A stretch of 64,000 bases of DNA from Candidatus Spechtbacteria bacterium RIFCSPLOWO2_12_FULL_38_22 (GTDB lineage: Bacteria; Patescibacteriota; Minisyncoccia; Spechtbacterales; 2-12-FULL-38-22). Within the stretch, counting starts at the first letter, position 1. Each line of letters begins with the position of its first letter. Shown in pieces: positions 22,025-56,736 of the stretch. The notes below the pieces were generated by a model. It ran no database searches. It was not told the origin of the DNA and saw only the letters and a list, made by a program, of their open reading frames with translations. Made by a program: the position numbers and the translations under genes. The stretch covers positions 7,371 through 71,370 of the forward strand of contig MHOK01000005.1 in NCBI GenBank assembly GCA_001820055.1, given 5' to 3'.

Positions 22025-22750
22025 TTAAAACGTATCCGCTCTAATAATATTATTCTCCGCTTTAAAATTTATCCAGTCTTCAACAATTCTGCGACAACTA
22101 CTTTCTCCTCCAAATAAGTTTAAATAAAAATCTCTTTCTGTAACTAGAGGGAAATTAGAATTTCCAATATAATCACAATAACTAGACCACCTATACCTTT
22201 CCAAAAAATTTAGTGCGTTGTTCTTGTTTTTAACTATTAATTCTTTCCAATCCGACTCCACTAGTTCTACAGGATTTGTATGAACATAGCTAAATATAAC
22301 CATTAATTGTTCGTTAGTCTTAATTTTAACACTTCTATATCTACCCTGAAATATGCCACCCATACCACTCCTATTGTACTTCTCATTAAAATATCCCGTA
22401 TATCCATTGCCTAATTTCTTCATAAATAGAGATATACCGCCATCGTTTATCTCTCTCAAAATTAAATGAAAATGATTGCGCATAAGAACAAGGGCTAAAA
22501 TAGCAACTATCGGCTTACGTTGTTTAACACTTCTAGCCTCTAACTTCTTAGGGGTTGAACCCCCAGGAAGTCGTCTTTCGTCATTCTTTAAGTCTCCTAT
22601 AACAATAAGCTCCTTGTTATTAAACCAATATAATGATTCAATAAAGCGCAAATAATCTTTATCGTCTAAAAATATATCGCGTTTATCATATCCGCGATTA
22701 TATACATGGTATATTCCATTTATTTCAAAATCTCTAGGTGGTGAAGCCAT
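22025..22750 (-). mobile_element. IS200/IS605-like Y1 HUH transposase, REP-associated (RAYT)
   Basis: 241 aa. YHVYNRGYDKRDIF N-terminal motif. HUH motif NHFHLIL. Catalytic Tyr region YVHTNPV. Flanked on both sides by REP palindromes. One REP-like copy at 22546-22575 lies in-frame inside the CDS (RLPGGSTPKKL). Confidence 0.65.
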
Positions 22751-22765
22751 AAAGTCAACCTATCA

Positions 22766-22798
22766 TACAATTCCTGGGGGTTCAACCCCCAGGAATTG
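22766..22798. repeat. REP palindrome upstream of the RAYT-type transposase gene
   Basis: Perfect palindrome ACAATTCCTGGGGGTTCAACCCCCAGGAATTGT. Confidence 0.65.
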
Positions 22799-22874
22799 TA
22801 AATTAGCCACCGAGTCCGCCGAAAGGGCGAATAAACTCCGCGAGGCGAACCAAAACTCTTTGACTTTTCCTACG

Positions 22875-22951
22875 TGGTGCTCCCGGGAGGACTCGAACCT
22901 CCAACCTTCTGGTCCGAAGCCAGACACTCTATCCGATTGAGCTACAGGAGC
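22875..22951 (-). tRNA. tRNA-Arg (anticodon TCG), CCA encoded
   Basis: Manual cloverleaf fold. Acceptor GCTCCTG/CGGGAGC. Anticodon stem TCTGG/CCAGA with loop CTTCGGA (UCG). T-arm GGAGG-TTCGAGT-CCTCC. 3' ACCA. Confidence 0.8.
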
Positions 22952-29061: not shown

Positions 29062-29946
29062 ATGATAACCCAAGATGTTTTAAAAACTCTAGCGTATTTT
29101 CAGGCCTTAGCCGATATGCCCCTAACCTTACTGGAAATCAAAAAATATCTTATAAAGGAGGGGAGTAAAAATAATACTCCTCTTTTTGATATACAAAAAT
29201 CACTAAACCACTTAATTAAAACGAGGCTTGTGTGCGGTAAAAACGGATTTTTTTATTTTGAGAACGCGCGCAACAATAAGGTCTACATAAATAGAATAGA
29301 GAAAATAAAAAATACTCACGGAAAATGGCGTAAATTTAATAAAATAAACAAATTCTTAATGTACATACCCTATATACGATCTATATCCTTAACAGGATCT
29401 GTTGCCCTTAATAACGCCTCGCCAAAAAGCGACCTGGATATACTCATAGAGTCGCGAAAAAATAGAATATGGACCGTACGCCTTCTAACAACAGCCGTGT
29501 CAGCTATCTTTCTAAGAAGAAGATACGCTAAAAAGATAAACAACAAGCTATGTTTTAACCGCTACATGGTTGAAAACTCTGATTTGGGACCTACGAACAT
29601 AAATCATGTAGTTAAAAATCGCGTAATAGTATGGAAAAAAGGTTATGACACAAGTGGTGAGACTATATATTCCTTAAAGCCAAATATTTTTGGGTTTGCC
29701 ATAAAGACCCTAGCAGAATTTATATTAAATATTACCGCAGTAGGTTTTTTCTTAGAAAAAGTGTCTGGCGCGTTACAAATAAAAAAGATAAAACATAACT
29801 TAATAGAATACCCCCGACACATCACACCGCTTACGATTCCTGCTTCCAACATATTCTTTTATTATCCAAGCGTCCTTGAAACAGAAAAAAAATGTAAAGA
29901 TATTTTGAGTTCCTTATACAGATTCGGACATGTGTCCGAAGAATAA
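29062..29946 (+). CDS. Nucleotidyltransferase-fold protein (Pol-beta superfamily)
   Basis: LTGSVALNNASPKSDLDIL fits the GS...D.D minimal NTase motif. Confidence 0.4.
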   Translation: MITQDVLKTLAYFQALADMPLTLLEIKKYLIKEGSKNNTPLFDIQKSLNHLIKTRLVCGKNGFFYFENARNNKVYINRIEKIKNTHGKWRKFNKINKFLMYIPYIRSISLTGSVALNNASPKSDLDILIESRKNRIWTVRLLTTAVSAIFLRRRYAKKINNKLCFNRYMVENSDLGPTNINHVVKNRVIVWKKGYDTSGETIYSLKPNIFGFAIKTLAEFILNITAVGFFLEKVSGALQIKKIKHNLIEYPRHITPLTIPASNIFFYYPSVLETEKKCKDILSSLYRFGHVSEE

Positions 29947-29989
29947 CAAGGATGTGGAAAACTATTTGTTGACTCGGCTGTCCGAATAG

Positions 29990-30476
29990 AAATATAATAT
30001 AATTAGATCCTTTTTTGTGTTCTATCTGCGGACCTCAGGAAAAAATTGGCACGAAAAGACTGGGCCACGAAGCCGGCAGAGGGAGCACAATCCTTGGTAT
30101 TCAGGGAAATAGGCCCTCTAATTAACAACTGGAATATGCTTTAGAAGTATCATTATAGTTATTAATTAGGGGGTCCAAGTGAACCCACTACAAGTAGTAA
30201 AACTATCGGGGATAAATCACAACTCCCTGAATACCGACCAAGCCTCCCTATCGGCAGACAGGCCTATCAACCGACAGGCAAATCAAAAAGTTCTTTATTT
30301 ATTAATACGTAAGTTTTCCTCCAAAAACACTCGGATAAGAGAACGCCTTAAGCCGTAGGCTTCTCTTTTTCATTCTCTCTCGTTGTCCGCATGACTAGGA
30401 CAACATTGTCTGCTCCATCATCGAGAGCAAGACACCCCGCTACTGACTACCAGTAGCGGGTCTTTTTTTATTAATA
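29990..30476 (+). ncRNA. Candidate structured non-coding RNA of unknown family, ending in an intrinsic terminator
   Basis: ~650-bp ORF-free stretch with elevated GC. Multiple local hairpins (GAGAACGCCTTAAGCCGTAGGCTTCTC; CTCTCGTTGTCC...GGACAAC). Terminal hairpin CCCGCTACTG-ACTA-CCAGTAGCGGG plus T9 at 30444-30476. Confidence 0.3.
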
Positions 30477-30606
30477 CTCCAGCGATAAACAGCTTGACAA
30501 AAAATCCAATAACGATTAAGCCCGAAAACTCCTATTATAAATAGGTTCTTCTCCCTAGGGATTAACTTCAATTGTCTTTGTCTGTTTTTTTGTTTACAAT
30601 ATATCT

Positions 30607-30981
30607 ATGACTTTAAAAACCTTAGAAAAATTTAAACTTCTCTTGCTTGAGCAAAAGGACTTGCTAGAAAAGAAATTAGAAACGATTGCTCAACGCGATC
30701 CAAATCAAGAAGATAACTGGAATACTATTTTCCCCAACTTTGCGCCAGACGAGTTTGACGAAGAAGAATCCGCAGACGAAGTGCAAGAGTACATAAACAG
30801 ACTCCCGCTAGAACATGCTATGGAACTGAGAATAAAAGAAATAAACAAAGCGCTTGGAAGAATTAAGGTGGGCACTTATGGAAAATGTAAAAACTGTAAC
30901 GAAGATATACCCCAAAAAAGACTGGAAATTCTGCCCGAAACAGACATTTGTTTAAAGTGTAAAGCTAAAACCAACAAATAG
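30607..30981 (+). CDS. DksA/TraR-family C4 zinc-finger protein
   Basis: C-terminal CKNC-x17-CLKC zinc finger with coiled-coil N-terminus. Confidence 0.62.
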   Translation: MTLKTLEKFKLLLLEQKDLLEKKLETIAQRDPNQEDNWNTIFPNFAPDEFDEEESADEVQEYINRLPLEHAMELRIKEINKALGRIKVGTYGKCKNCNEDIPQKRLEILPETDICLKCKAKTNK

Positions 30982-55396: not shown

Positions 55397-55623
55397 TATA
55401 TCAATTTTGTGGAAAAGTTGTTGAAAAGTGTGTATATATCCCTTAGGATATCTATGTTGAAAAAACTCTAATCGTTTTCTAAAAAATAATTAACCCGCTT
55501 CTTTCCAACAAAAATCCACAACGTTATACAAACTAGTTTGCACAGGTTTTTCCATCTAACAAATACTGATCACAAAGCCAAAAAATAGTTTTTGAACAAA
55601 TTTATAACTATACTATAACAACT
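55397..55623. promoter_or_regulatory. Candidate oriC segment (dnaA-dnaN intergenic) with DnaA-box-like 9-mers and AT-rich stretch
   Basis: TTGTGGAAA (TTTCCACAA) and AAATCCACA. AT-rich tracts. Confidence 0.35.
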
Positions 55624-56736
55624 ATGAAACTGTATATAAAAAAAGAGTTATTTCTGAAAGCAATAAGCGCAACCGAAAAAAATACCGGAAAAAATTTTAC
55701 ATTACCTATATTAAACAATGTTTTAATAAAAACTGTTGAAAACATATTGCAATTAACCTCTACAGATTTGGAATTAGCAACAATTGCTGAGGTGCCTGCA
55801 AAAATAGAAGAAGAAGGAAGTATCGCGATGAACCCAAAAACCTTAAGCGGTTTTTTAGTCAATTCCCCAGAGGGAGAAGTTTTATTAAAAACAAAAAAAG
55901 ACATCTTACTTGTAGAGCATAGAAATTATAAAACAAACATTAAAGGTTTTTTAGATAAAGATTTTCCATTATTACCAAAAACAGATAAAAAGAAGTTTTT
56001 TACAATTCCGTCTACCATTATCACCAGTGCTTTGTCCCAAGTAATAAATTCTGTCTCTATCAGTGATTTGAAGCTGGAACTCACAGGAGTGTTTTTTAAG
56101 ATTACAAAAAATAATATTAAACTGGTGTCCACGGATTCTTTTAGATTATCTGAAAAAACACTTTCTAGAGATAAATCAGAAAATGTTAACGAGGAAAGTT
56201 TTATATTGCCGACGAAAGCGGCGAACGAGATTATAAGAAATTATCAAGACCTCAACGATATTTTGTTTTTTTATATAGACAAAAACCAAGTTACTATACA
56301 AAATGAGGAAAACAAAAAGGTAAATTTAAAAATTATATCCAAAATTATTGAGGGCGAGTATCCAGAATATTCCCAAATAATACCCAAAGAATTTACAACA
56401 AAAGTAATTATTTCTAAAAAGGAGTTTGCGCAACAAATAAAAAGCGCGGGCTTATTTGCAAGCAGAATAAACGACATTACTCTCAGGGTTGAAAAAGATA
56501 AATTGACAATACATTCGCAAAATAATGATGTAGGAGAGTTCAGTTCTTATATTGAGGCCCATGTGGAGGGGGAAGAACAGGAAATGAGATTTAATTATAA
56601 CTACCTTTTATCTGGGTTGAATAATATAGAAGGAGATGAAGTTGTGTTTAAGATAAATAGGTCTGACGGCCCAACTCTTGTGGAATCTGTTAAAAACAAA
56701 GATTACTTCTATATTCTGATGCCAATTAGAAAATAA
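55624..56736 (+). CDS. dnaN: DNA polymerase III beta sliding clamp
   Basis: 370 aa. Three-domain clamp. Immediately downstream of dnaA. Confidence 0.9.
   Translation: MKLYIKKELFLKAISATEKNTGKNFTLPILNNVLIKTVENILQLTSTDLELATIAEVPAKIEEEGSIAMNPKTLSGFLVNSPEGEVLLKTKKDILLVEHRNYKTNIKGFLDKDFPLLPKTDKKKFFTIPSTIITSALSQVINSVSISDLKLELTGVFFKITKNNIKLVSTDSFRLSEKTLSRDKSENVNEESFILPTKAANEIIRNYQDLNDILFFYIDKNQVTIQNEENKKVNLKIISKIIEGEYPEYSQIIPKEFTTKVIISKKEFAQQIKSAGLFASRINDITLRVEKDKLTIHSQNNDVGEFSSYIEAHVEGEEQEMRFNYNYLLSGLNNIEGDEVVFKINRSDGPTLVESVKNKDYFYILMPIRK

What the first reader, a model, noticed from the sequence alone, without database searches (positions are those of the whole stretch)
29950..30480. ORF-free structured region ending in a strong intrinsic terminator: candidate sRNA
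About 650 bp without ORFs over 60 aa. GC is higher than neighbours. Several nested hairpins and repeated ATCGGCAGACAGGC / ATCAACCGACAGGC units. A canonical terminator sits at 30444-30476, well upstream (130 bp) of the next gene. It is too long and structured for a simple leader. It does not show obvious RNase P (GGAAAGUCC), tmRNA (tag ORF, T-arm) or SRP domain IV signatures, so it may be a lineage-specific RNA.
Basis: seen in the sequence. Interest (0 to 1): 0.5.

Follow-up and report, generated by a model that had tools for sequence, protein, structure and literature searches.

The report
Undescribed structured RNA gene in Spechtbacteria
The ORF-free stretch is a real gene for a folded non-coding RNA of about 465 bases with its own promoter and terminator; it is conserved only in one order of ultra-small groundwater bacteria, matches no catalogued RNA family, and its function is unknown.

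Summary
Window 29947-30606 has no ORF over 59 aa. It carries a near-consensus sigma-70 promoter (29969-29998) and an intrinsic terminator (30436-30470) on the + strand.

The genome is a Candidatus Spechtbacteria (CPR/Patescibacteria) MAG. Ten lineages of the order hold a homologous element at the same place, directly downstream of an NTase-like gene. Nine also have a dksA-like gene after it.

Two helices have strong covariation support:
- H1 (30019-30031 / 30073-30086): 89% of cells paired, 6 of 13 pairs with compensatory changes.
- Ha (30096-30106 / 30225-30235): 98% paired, 6 of 11 compensatory.

The most conserved piece is the hairpin CCC[AYYACAAGUARUAAA..]GGG (30184-30211). The 59-aa ORF is broken in relatives.

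Rfam 15, ARAGORN and motif checks exclude RNase P RNA, tmRNA, SRP RNA and 6S RNA as far as these methods can see. A dksA leader is unlikely, because dksA has its own promoter in most lineages examined and is absent downstream in one.

Verdict: an independently transcribed, lineage-specific structured ncRNA of an undescribed family. It has a core of about 300 nt plus a clade-specific 3' module of about 170 nt. Its function is unknown. My inference is a trans-acting, protein-binding RNA, possibly tied to the NTase gene.

The parts
29923..29940 (.). Palindrome TTCGGACA-TG-TGTCCGAA at the 3' end of the NTase ORF. It is an operator-like half-site pair.
   Evidence: TTYGGACA / TGTCCRAA copies recur around the promoter in most lineages, and both arms change together in L020 (TTTGGACA / TGTCCAAA).
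29953..29961 (+). TGTGGAAAA, the reverse complement of a DnaA-box-like 9-mer, 8 nt upstream of the -35 element.
   Evidence: It is present in all 10 lineages. It reads TGTGGAAAA or TGTGGATAA in eight of them and has the opposite orientation (TTTTCCACA) in L016 and L026.
29969..29998 (+). Sigma-70-type promoter TTGACT-18-TATAAT. The spacer contains TGTCCGAAT (29979-29987).
   Evidence: 11 of 12 matches. Equivalent 11-of-12 promoters occur in L024, L016 and L020. The ten promoter regions are aligned.
30005..30470 (+). Predicted full transcript (about 466 nt): core plus 3' module.
   Evidence: Promoter and terminator positions; fold z = -7.6; constrained fold. The transcript ends are inferred, not measured.
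30019..30086 (+). Domain 1. Long hairpin H1, with GTTCTATCTGCGG (30019-30031) pairing with CCGGCAGAGGGAGC (30073-30086), plus a variable apex.
   Evidence: Alignment A5: 89.4% of cells paired, 6 of 13 pairs with changes on both sides, slid controls 37-52% paired. Model R2 hits once per locus.
30065..30072 (+). Conserved asymmetric internal-loop sequence CCACGAAG on the 3' side of H1.
   Evidence: It reads CCACGAAG, CCAAGAAG or CCACGAAA in the near clade and YCAYCAC in L016 and L020.
30096..30235 (+). Domain 2. Helix Ha, with GGTATTCAGGG (30096-30106) pairing with CCCTGAATACC (30225-30235), closes a multi-branch region.
   Evidence: Alignment A6: 97.7% paired, 6 of 11 pairs with changes on both sides. 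Model R1 scores 55-88 bits on the + strand only, once per locus.
30114..30173 (+). Variable expansion hairpin Hv (about 18 bp).
   Evidence: inverted repeat I1. It is absent in L005, L016, L020 and L036, short in L023, and expanded by 268 nt in L011.
30184..30211 (+). Most conserved element: CCC[ACTACAAGTAGTAAAACTATC]GGGG, a hairpin presenting an AAGUARUAAA loop. It includes the small helix ACTA-CAAG-TAGT (30187-30198).
   Evidence: It is also kept in the minimal L036 version, CCC[AUCAAGUAAUAAAUUU]GGGG.
30237..30244 (+). Conserved single-stranded tail ACCAAGCC directly after Ha.
   Evidence: ACCA follows the Ha stem in 6 of 10 lineages. It is absent in L026 and L036.
30247..30278 (+). This is a variable hairpin region, not a conserved feature.
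   Evidence: direct repeat D2. L014, L005, L011 and L023 have different sequence here.
30291..30305 (+). U-rich tract TTCTTTATTTATT at the end of the core. In L016, L020 and L024 a true terminator sits at the equivalent place.
   Evidence: (direct repeats D1 and D4).
30306..30435 (+). Clade-specific 3' module. It holds the helix AAGAGAA/TTCTCTT around TAAGCCGTA, the hairpin 30382-30404 and the hairpin 30407-30434.
   Evidence: It is present in win, L014, L005, L011 and L023, and absent in L016, L020, L024 and L036.
30436..30470 (+). Intrinsic terminator: 10-bp stem, loop ACTAC, T run.
   Evidence: One search shows 88% paired, 4 pairs with changes on both sides, and G-ACTA-Y-C at the top of the stem and in the loop unchanged except the Y in 5 lineages.
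30572..30600 (+). Separate promoter of the dksA-like gene (TTGTCT-17-TACAAT). It is not part of the RNA.
   Evidence: The same arrangement occurs in L016. L005 carries the same TACAAT close to the ATG (read by eye).

Best explanation
Window ~30005-30470 (+ strand) is an independently transcribed gene for a structured non-coding RNA of a family not yet described. So far it is found only in the CPR order Spechtbacterales.

Shown:
- A near-consensus sigma-70 promoter and intrinsic terminator(s) bracket the element, and there is no conserved ORF.
- The core has two domains. Domain 1 is a long hairpin (H1) with a conserved asymmetric internal loop. Domain 2 is closed by helix Ha and presents a strongly conserved hairpin loop, CCC[AYYACAAGUARUAAA..]GGG. 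Both helices are maintained by compensatory substitutions.
- Expansion hairpins come and go between lineages. The window's clade carries an extra 3' module of about 170 nt that ends in a terminator with a conserved loop.
- The gene always sits directly downstream of a ~290-aa nucleotidyltransferase-like (NTase-like) gene whose N-terminus looks like a winged helix in a low-confidence model. It keeps that position even where the downstream dksA-like gene is missing.

Inferred:
- The RNA acts in trans as a stable, protein-bound RNA. The conserved loop and the H1 internal loop would be the recognition surfaces.
- Its synthesis is regulated through the conserved DnaA-box-like 9-mer and the TTCGGACA/TGTCCGAA repeats around the promoter.
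- The NTase-like protein is the most likely partner, either as binder or modifier of the RNA or as regulator of its promoter.
For: - Promoter and terminator lie on the + strand. The same 11-of-12 promoter occurs in L024, L016 and L020, and promoter architecture is aligned in all ten lineages.
- Folding energy gives z = -7.6 on the + strand against -5.2 on the - strand.
- Syntenic homologues were found through both flanking proteins.
- Conservation is block-wise, with indel-tolerant hairpins.
- H1: 89.4% paired, 6 of 13 pairs with changes on both sides, 0 of 500 shuffles reach the covariation score, slid controls 37-52% paired.
- Ha: 97.7% paired, 6 of 11 pairs with changes on both sides.
- Terminator stem: 4 pairs with changes on both sides and a near-invariant loop.
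- An invariant U-G pair and further U-G pairs in H1, together with + strand model scores of 55-88 bits against 14-32 bits on the - strand, fix the strand.
- Each locus has a single copy, and there is none in loci of distant NTase homologues.
- The minimal L036 version keeps the promoter, Ha and the loop hairpin but has no dksA downstream.
- No Rfam family matches and ARAGORN finds no tmRNA.
- The 59-aa frame has stop codons in L011 and L016, and peptide similarity is spread over all six frames.
Against: - No expression data were available, so the transcript ends are predictions.
- Only about 10 lineages are known, and two pairs are close relatives. The shuffle control overstates significance for related sequences.
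- The two most distant members are weak. L026 matches only H1 at 24.6 bits, and its Ha-like helix scores 11 bits. L036 scores 15 bits. They are accepted mainly on position and promoter layout.
- Nothing tested here shows protein binding or any link to the NTase beyond gene order, and sampling through the NTase gene biases that association.
- In L024 the terminator lies 11 nt from the dksA start with no recognisable promoter between, which fits a leader.
- Whole Spechtbacterales genomes could not be scanned. It is therefore not shown that they hold a separate RNase P RNA, tmRNA, SRP RNA or 6S RNA.
Confidence: 0.7

Rival explanations
1. The element is a cis-acting 5' leader (attenuator or riboswitch-like) of the dksA-like gene. 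The structured RNA would sense a ligand or protein and control read-through of its terminator into dksA.
For: The RNA lies upstream of a dksA-like gene, in the same orientation, in 9 of 10 lineages. In L024 the terminator ends 11 nt before the dksA ATG, and no promoter was found between them.
Against: - The window and L016 have a separate TTGTCT-17-TACAAT promoter just before the dksA ATG. L020 and L026 have promoter-like sites between the RNA terminator and dksA.
- The spacer between terminator and dksA is 85-270 nt in most lineages.
- L036 keeps the RNA but has a convergent gene instead of dksA downstream.
- No conserved terminator/antiterminator alternative was found.
Confidence: 0.1
2. The element is a highly diverged form of a universal RNA (RNase P RNA, tmRNA, SRP RNA or 6S RNA) that Rfam models miss. 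Diverged RNase P RNAs of this kind have been reported in CPR bacteria.
For: Lui et al. 2021 (PMC8172020) found that 10 of 35 circular CPR genomes had RNase P RNAs that fell below the model's noise cut-off and were detectable only with RF00010 at a threshold lowered to about 5 bits. The present RNA is single-copy, strongly promoted and in a fitting size range (190-465 nt).
Against: - No hit to any of these families appears even at E<=10 (about 11-17 bits) in the window, L005 or L024.
- ARAGORN finds no tmRNA.
- RNase P CR-I and CR-V, the tmRNA T-loop and the SRP domain IV motif have at least 2-4 mismatches at inconsistent positions in all nine homologues tested.
- The covariation-supported architecture (two consecutive hairpin domains, with no long-range P4-type pairing seen, no tRNA-like ends and no central bubble) does not fit those folds.
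- The L036 version is only about 150 nt.
Confidence: 0.05
3. There are two RNAs rather than one. The conserved core (~30005-30305) would be the functional sRNA ending at the U-rich tract, and 30306-30470 would be a second, clade-specific sRNA or a read-through extension.
For: - L016, L020 and L024 end in a true terminator right after the core, and L036 ends in a U run directly after Ha.
- The window has the direct repeat TCTTTATTTATTAATAC / TCTTTTTTTATTAATAC after the core and after the final terminator.
- The 3' module has conserved features of its own: TAAGCCGTA, covarying hairpins and an invariant terminator loop.
Against: No promoter-like site was found between the modules. In the window no G+C-rich stem directly abuts the 30291-30305 U tract. 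The full-length MFE pairs 5' and 3' parts, but that pairing is not conserved.
Confidence: 0.25
4. The region encodes a small protein (the 59-aa ORF 30179-30358, preceded by AGGGGG) or is a decayed protein gene.
For: The ORF and a Shine-Dalgarno-like AGGGGG lie 5 nt upstream of a GTG.
Against: - The frame is interrupted by stop codons in L011 and L016 within the most conserved stretch.
- There is no Pfam hit.
- Cross-lineage peptide similarity is equal in all frames and on both strands.
- Substitutions are compensatory in stems.
- Gene callers predicted no + strand gene here on any contig.
Confidence: 0.02

Closest known systems
Orphan structured ncRNA motifs found by comparative genomics (for example raiA, ROOL, GOLLD and OLE, and the intergenic-region motifs from the Breaker and Weinberg groups; recalled from my own knowledge, all in Rfam)
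   Same: It is an intergenic, independently transcribed, multi-helix RNA with covariation. It tolerates expansion hairpins, is restricted to a lineage, and has no assigned function.
   Different: There is no sequence or structure match to any of the 4227 Rfam 15 families. It has a much narrower known range (one CPR order). It sits in fixed synteny with an NTase-like gene rather than in prophage or tRNA contexts.
Diverged CPR RNase P RNA (Lui et al. 2021, PMC8172020)
   Same: It is a CPR-specific, single-copy RNA of a few hundred nucleotides that escapes standard Rfam thresholds.
   Different: It lacks CR-I (GAGGAAAGUCC) and CR-V (ACAGAA..GGCUUA), and no P4-type long-range pairing was seen. There is no RF00010 or RF00011 hit at E<=10. 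Its architecture is two serial hairpin domains.
Riboswitch or attenuator leaders with intrinsic terminators
   Same: Promoter, then structured RNA, then terminator, upstream of a conserved gene (dksA-like) in the same orientation.
   Different: dksA has its own promoter in most lineages examined and is absent downstream in L036. No switching helices were identified. The length and modularity exceed typical aptamers.
6S RNA
   Same: It is an abundant-looking, sigma-70-driven, housekeeping-style sRNA, and it sits next to a gene for an RNA-polymerase-binding factor (DksA family).
   Different: There is no closing stem, central bubble and terminal stem shape, and no Rfam 6S hit.

Membership tests
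RNase P RNA (bacterial type A/B) | Conserved CR-I (GAGGAAAGUCC) and CR-V (ACAGAA..GGCUUA) strands that form the P4 pseudoknot | tested here: not met
   The best matches have 3-4 mismatches, at non-homologous positions, in 9 homologues.
RNase P RNA (bacterial type A/B) | A match to Rfam RF00010, RF00011 or related covariance models | tested here: not met
   No hit at gathering or at E<=10 in the window, L005 or L024. The 5-bit threshold used by Lui et al. could not be reached with this tool.
RNase P RNA (bacterial type A/B) | Absence of any other RNase P RNA in the genome | not testable with these tools
   Only 64 kb of the genome and short loci of relatives were available.
tmRNA | A tRNA-like domain (acceptor stem formed by the 5' and 3' ends, T-arm GGUUCGAnUCC) plus a tag reading frame | tested here: not met
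   ARAGORN finds none. T-loop motif matches have at least 2-4 mismatches. There are no Rfam tmRNA hits.
SRP RNA (4.5S / long form) | Domain IV motif (GGAA tetraloop, AGCA / GGAAGCAGCC loops) | tested here: not met
   (3-4 mismatches, or no match at all). No Rfam hit.
6S RNA | An RNA of about 180 nt that is mostly double-stranded, with a large central bubble between a closing stem and a terminal stem | tested here: not met
   The covariation-supported structure is two serial hairpin domains. No Rfam 6S hit.
Cis-regulatory leader / riboswitch of dksA | No independent promoter between the element and the regulated gene | tested here: not met
   A separate promoter lies just before the dksA start in the window and L016, and promoter-like sites occur in L020 and L026. 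Only L024 lacks one.
Cis-regulatory leader / riboswitch of dksA | Constant association with the regulated gene | tested here: not met
   L036 keeps the RNA but has no dksA downstream.
Independent bacterial ncRNA gene | Its own promoter and intrinsic terminator on one strand, conserved across lineages | tested here: met
Independent bacterial ncRNA gene | Conserved secondary structure supported by compensatory substitutions, and no conserved ORF | tested here: met
   structure; no ORF.
Independent bacterial ncRNA gene | A detectable discrete transcript | not testable with these tools
   No RNA-seq data were available.
Mobile-element or guide RNAs (IS605 omega RNA, IS110 bridge RNA, retron ncRNA, TIGR arrays) | An adjacent transposase, reverse transcriptase or Tas gene, multiple genomic copies, or repeat arrays | tested here: not met
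   The neighbours are the NTase-like gene, a dksA-like gene and an EamA transporter gene. The element is single-copy. It has only two non-conserved 16-nt units. There are no hits in viral contigs.

The most novel reading that the evidence does not exclude
The RNA and the upstream NTase-like gene form a conserved two-gene module that is new to biology. Domain 2 is a helix of 7-14 bp, often followed by a single-stranded RACCA tail, which resembles a tRNA acceptor minihelix. In this reading the RNA would be the dedicated substrate, template or decoy of the nucleotidyltransferase. The protein's possible N-terminal winged-helix domain would autoregulate the module through the TTCGGACA/TGTCCGAA operator. 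This would be a previously unknown RNA-protein system in reduced-genome CPR bacteria.
Probability: 0.15. Interest if true: 0.75.

Novelty: new member of a known kind. Interest (0 to 1): 0.5.

Why it matters
CPR/Patescibacteria have tiny genomes, so each conserved non-coding gene is likely to serve a basic function, and very few ncRNAs beyond the universal ones have been described for them. This RNA has a near-consensus promoter, a conserved upstream 9-mer, operator-like repeats and covarying helices. That makes it a well-defined candidate for experiment or metatranscriptome mapping. The covariance models built here give a way to chart its distribution.

If it proves to be tied to the adjacent nucleotidyltransferase, it would define a new RNA-protein module. 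If it is only a lineage-restricted sRNA, it is still a useful addition to RNA family catalogues, but not a surprise.

Tried and rejected
1. Known RNA families. I ran Rfam at gathering on the window and on nine homologous loci, and at E<=10 on the window, L005 and L024. Only noise appeared (dinG, snR91, nuoG and similar, all E>1). ARAGORN found only two tRNAs.

2. Signature motifs of RNase P, tmRNA and SRP RNA were absent.

3. Repeated or mobile element. There is no other copy in the window and none in viral contigs.

4. A TIGR-like or CRISPR-like array was rejected. There are only two 16-nt units, and they are not conserved.

5. Wider distribution by DNA pattern (CCCAYYMYAAGTARTRAA..GGG..CCCYGA). 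There were 0 hits in genome contigs. In metagenome contigs only lineages already known were found.

6. A first related-loci run with a 10-sequence alignment failed because no stretch was conserved enough. A 6-sequence alignment worked.

7. Replication origin, prompted by the DnaA-box-like 9-mer. There is no cluster of DnaA boxes and no GC-skew turn at 30 kb.

8. Antisense targets of the conserved loop in the window: 21 sites with up to 2 mismatches, against 14 +/- 4 expected. This is not informative.

9. The AlphaFold model of the NTase-like protein has mean pLDDT 50.3, too poor for fold search, so none was run. Profile searches gave only the generic minimal-NTase motif.

10. K-turn and tRNA-cloverleaf readings of H1 and domain 2 were worked through by hand. 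Both were dropped because they conflict with the covarying registers: pair 17-42 in A5 and pair 12-78 in A6.

11. The window's MFE pairing of GCCGGCAGAGGGAG with CUCCCUAUCGGC was rejected. It is not kept in L014, and H1 uses that strand instead.

12. Literature searches for CPR ncRNAs gave only the RNase P paper.

Full report
**What is in the window.** The interval between the ORF at 29062-29946 and the ORF at 30607-30981 is 660 nt long. Its longest ORF is 59 aa. G+C is 0.41-0.435 there, against 0.31-0.36 just outside and 0.385 for the whole window.

A consensus scan finds TTGACT-18-TATAAT at 29969-29998 (11 of 12 matches) on the + strand. It also finds a terminator with a 10-bp stem at 30436-30460 followed by a T run. 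The predicted transcript therefore runs from about 30005 to 30470. It folds with z = -7.6 against dinucleotide shuffles; the reverse strand gives z = -5.2. No other copy of any part of the region occurs in the window.

**Known families.** Rfam 15 at gathering thresholds reports only two tRNAs in the whole window. At E<=10 the region gives only chance-level hits with E>1. ARAGORN finds no tmRNA.

**Organism and homologues.** The flanking proteins are a nucleotidyltransferase-fold (NTase-like) protein (PF01909) and a DksA/TraR zinc-finger protein. Exact and near matches place the window in Candidatus Spechtbacteria from the Rifle aquifer.

I fetched contigs for homologues of both flanking proteins. 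This gave ten distinct lineages with an element at the same place:
- the window and L014, which are close relatives;
- L005, L011, L023, L016, L020 and L024;
- the GC-rich L026 and the minimal L036.

All ten have the element directly downstream of the NTase-like gene. Nine have the dksA-like gene after it. No + strand gene was called inside the gap on any contig. More distant NTase homologues in L022 and in Saccharibacteria and Harrisonbacteria loci have no such element.

**It is RNA, not protein.** Conservation comes in blocks separated by hairpins that appear, vanish or expand. The 59-aa frame meets stop codons in L011 and L016 within the best-conserved stretch. Six-frame peptide comparison shows equal weak similarity in every frame on both strands.

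**Structure.** Segment-wise alignment and RNAalifold recover two helices.

H1 pairs 30019-30031 with 30073-30086. On MAFFT alignment A5 of nine lineages, 89.4% of cells are standard pairs. Six of 13 pairs have changes on both sides. No shuffle of 500 reaches the covariation score, and partners slid by 1-3 columns give 37-52% pairing.

Ha pairs 30096-30106 with 30225-30235. On A6 of eight lineages, 97.7% of cells are paired and 6 of 11 pairs have changes on both sides.

The final terminator stem also covaries. G-ACTA-Y-C at the top of the stem and in the loop is unchanged, apart from the Y, in the five lineages that have it. An invariant U-G pair and several further U-G pairs in H1 fix the strand. 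So do covariance-model scores of 55-88 bits on the + strand against 14-32 bits on the - strand.

Inside Ha lies the most conserved sequence of the family, CCC[ACUACAAGUAGUAAAACUAUC]GGGG at 30184-30211. The minimal L036 RNA is about 150 nt. It keeps a 7-bp Ha, CCC[AUCAAGUAAUAAAUUU]GGGG and a U run. That supports the CCC/GGG hairpin and marks its loop as the core element.

The hairpin at 30114-30173 is an expansion segment. It is absent in four lineages and is 268 nt longer in L011.

The 16-nt tandem units lie in a region that differs even in L014, so they are not a feature of the family.

The window's clade carries a further 3' module (30306-30435) with conserved features of its own, before the terminator. 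L016, L020 and L024 terminate right after the core.

**Promoter region.** All ten lineages share the same layout:
- a DnaA-box-like 9-mer (TGTGGAAAA or TGTGGATAA, inverted in L016 and L026) 3-14 nt upstream of a TTGAC -35 element;
- a good -10 element;
- a transcript that starts near TAGA in most lineages.

Most lineages also have TGTCCRAAT in the spacer and one or more TTYGGACA copies upstream. In L020 both arms change together (TTTGGACA / TGTCCAAA). This looks like an operator for a dimeric regulator, and it argues for a regulated, functional promoter. It is not a replication origin, because there is no DnaA-box cluster and no skew turn here.

**What it is not.**

RNase P RNA deserved attention, because Lui et al. 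2021 (PMC8172020) reported diverged CPR forms found only at very low RF00010 scores. Three results argue against it here:
- E<=10 scans of the window, L005 and L024 give no RNase P, tmRNA, SRP RNA or 6S RNA hit, and none of nine loci has any gathering-level family.
- The CR-I, CR-V, T-loop and domain IV motifs are missing in all homologues tested.
- The supported fold is two serial hairpin domains, with no P4-type long-range pairing seen.

I could not scan whole genomes to show that a canonical RNase P RNA lies elsewhere, so a small residual probability stays.

A dksA leader is also unlikely. The window and L016 have a separate TTGTCT-17-TACAAT promoter just before the dksA ATG, which suggests a leaderless or near-leaderless mRNA. 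L020 and L026 have promoter-like sites between the RNA terminator and dksA. The spacers are 85-270 nt in most lineages. L036 has the RNA without dksA. Only L024 fits a leader.

Mobile-element and guide-RNA readings fail on copy number and neighbours.

**Mechanism.**

Shown: a conserved promoter, terminators and a covarying two-domain fold with an invariant loop.

Inferred: the RNA is a stable trans-acting molecule that is recognised by protein through the loop and the H1 internal loop (CCACGAAG, 30065-30072). The only constant neighbour is the NTase-like gene, so that protein is the leading candidate partner.

The tail after Ha reads RACCA in six lineages. Together with a 7-14-bp helix this recalls a tRNA acceptor minihelix. 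However, the tail is not universal, and a cloverleaf reading conflicts with the covarying pair 12-78 in A6. I keep this only as the novel case.

The NTase could not be characterised further. Profiles give only the generic minimal-NTase motif, and the AlphaFold model is unreliable. No enrichment of sites complementary to the loop was seen in the window.

**Verdict.** This is a real, previously uncatalogued, lineage-specific structured ncRNA gene. It is a new family of a known kind, the orphan bacterial structured RNA. Interest is moderate. It would rise if expression data and a link to the NTase were shown.

Noticed in passing
window 29953-29961; equivalent positions in L005, L011, L014, L016, L020, L023, L024, L026, L036: A DnaA-box-like 9-mer (TGTGGAAAA or TGTGGATAA, the reverse complement of TTWTCCACA) sits 3-14 nt upstream of the -35 element of the RNA promoter in all ten lineages. 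In L016 and L026 it has the opposite orientation. It may be a transcription-factor site.
   Followed up: partly
window 29923-29940 and 29979-29987: TTCGGACA/TGTCCGAA inverted repeats bracket the RNA promoter, one copy lying inside the promoter spacer. In L020 both arms read TTTGGACA/TGTCCAAA, and L026 has extra direct copies. They look like an operator.
   Followed up: partly
window 30572-30609: The dksA-like gene has a TTGTCT-17-TACAAT promoter whose -10 element ends 6 nt before the ATG, so its mRNA is probably leaderless. The same layout occurs in L016, with the ATG 10 nt after the -10 element, and L005 has the same TACAAT 6 nt before its ATG.
   Followed up: partly
L016 2885-2912: The called start of the dksA-like gene (130 aa) lies inside its own predicted promoter. 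The ATG at 2912 fits the 121-125 aa of most homologues better, so the annotated start is probably too far upstream.
   Followed up: partly
L011 about 2210-2560: The expansion hairpin of the RNA carries a 268-nt insertion in this lineage. Its nature is unknown; a nested element or extra RNA domains are possibilities. Rfam finds nothing there at gathering.
   Followed up: partly
window 30446-30450 versus 30194-30198: The terminator loop ACUAC (ACUAU in L014, L005, L011 and L023) is complementary to GUAGU in the conserved loop, so a loop-loop contact between the 3' module and domain 2 is possible. The same GUAGU also pairs locally with ACUAC at 30187-30191.
   Followed up: no
window 55408-55450: A second TGTGGAAAA lies 4 nt upstream of a TTGAAA -35-like hexamer, in the intergenic region before the ORF at 55624-56736. 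The 9-mer may therefore be a more general promoter-proximal element in this genome.
   Followed up: no
window 22025-22951: A 241-aa ORF with an HFHLIL motif looks like an IS200/REP-associated tyrosine transposase. Its start lies about 125 nt from tRNA-Arg(TCG) at 22875-22951, on the same strand. This assignment is by eye only.
   Followed up: no
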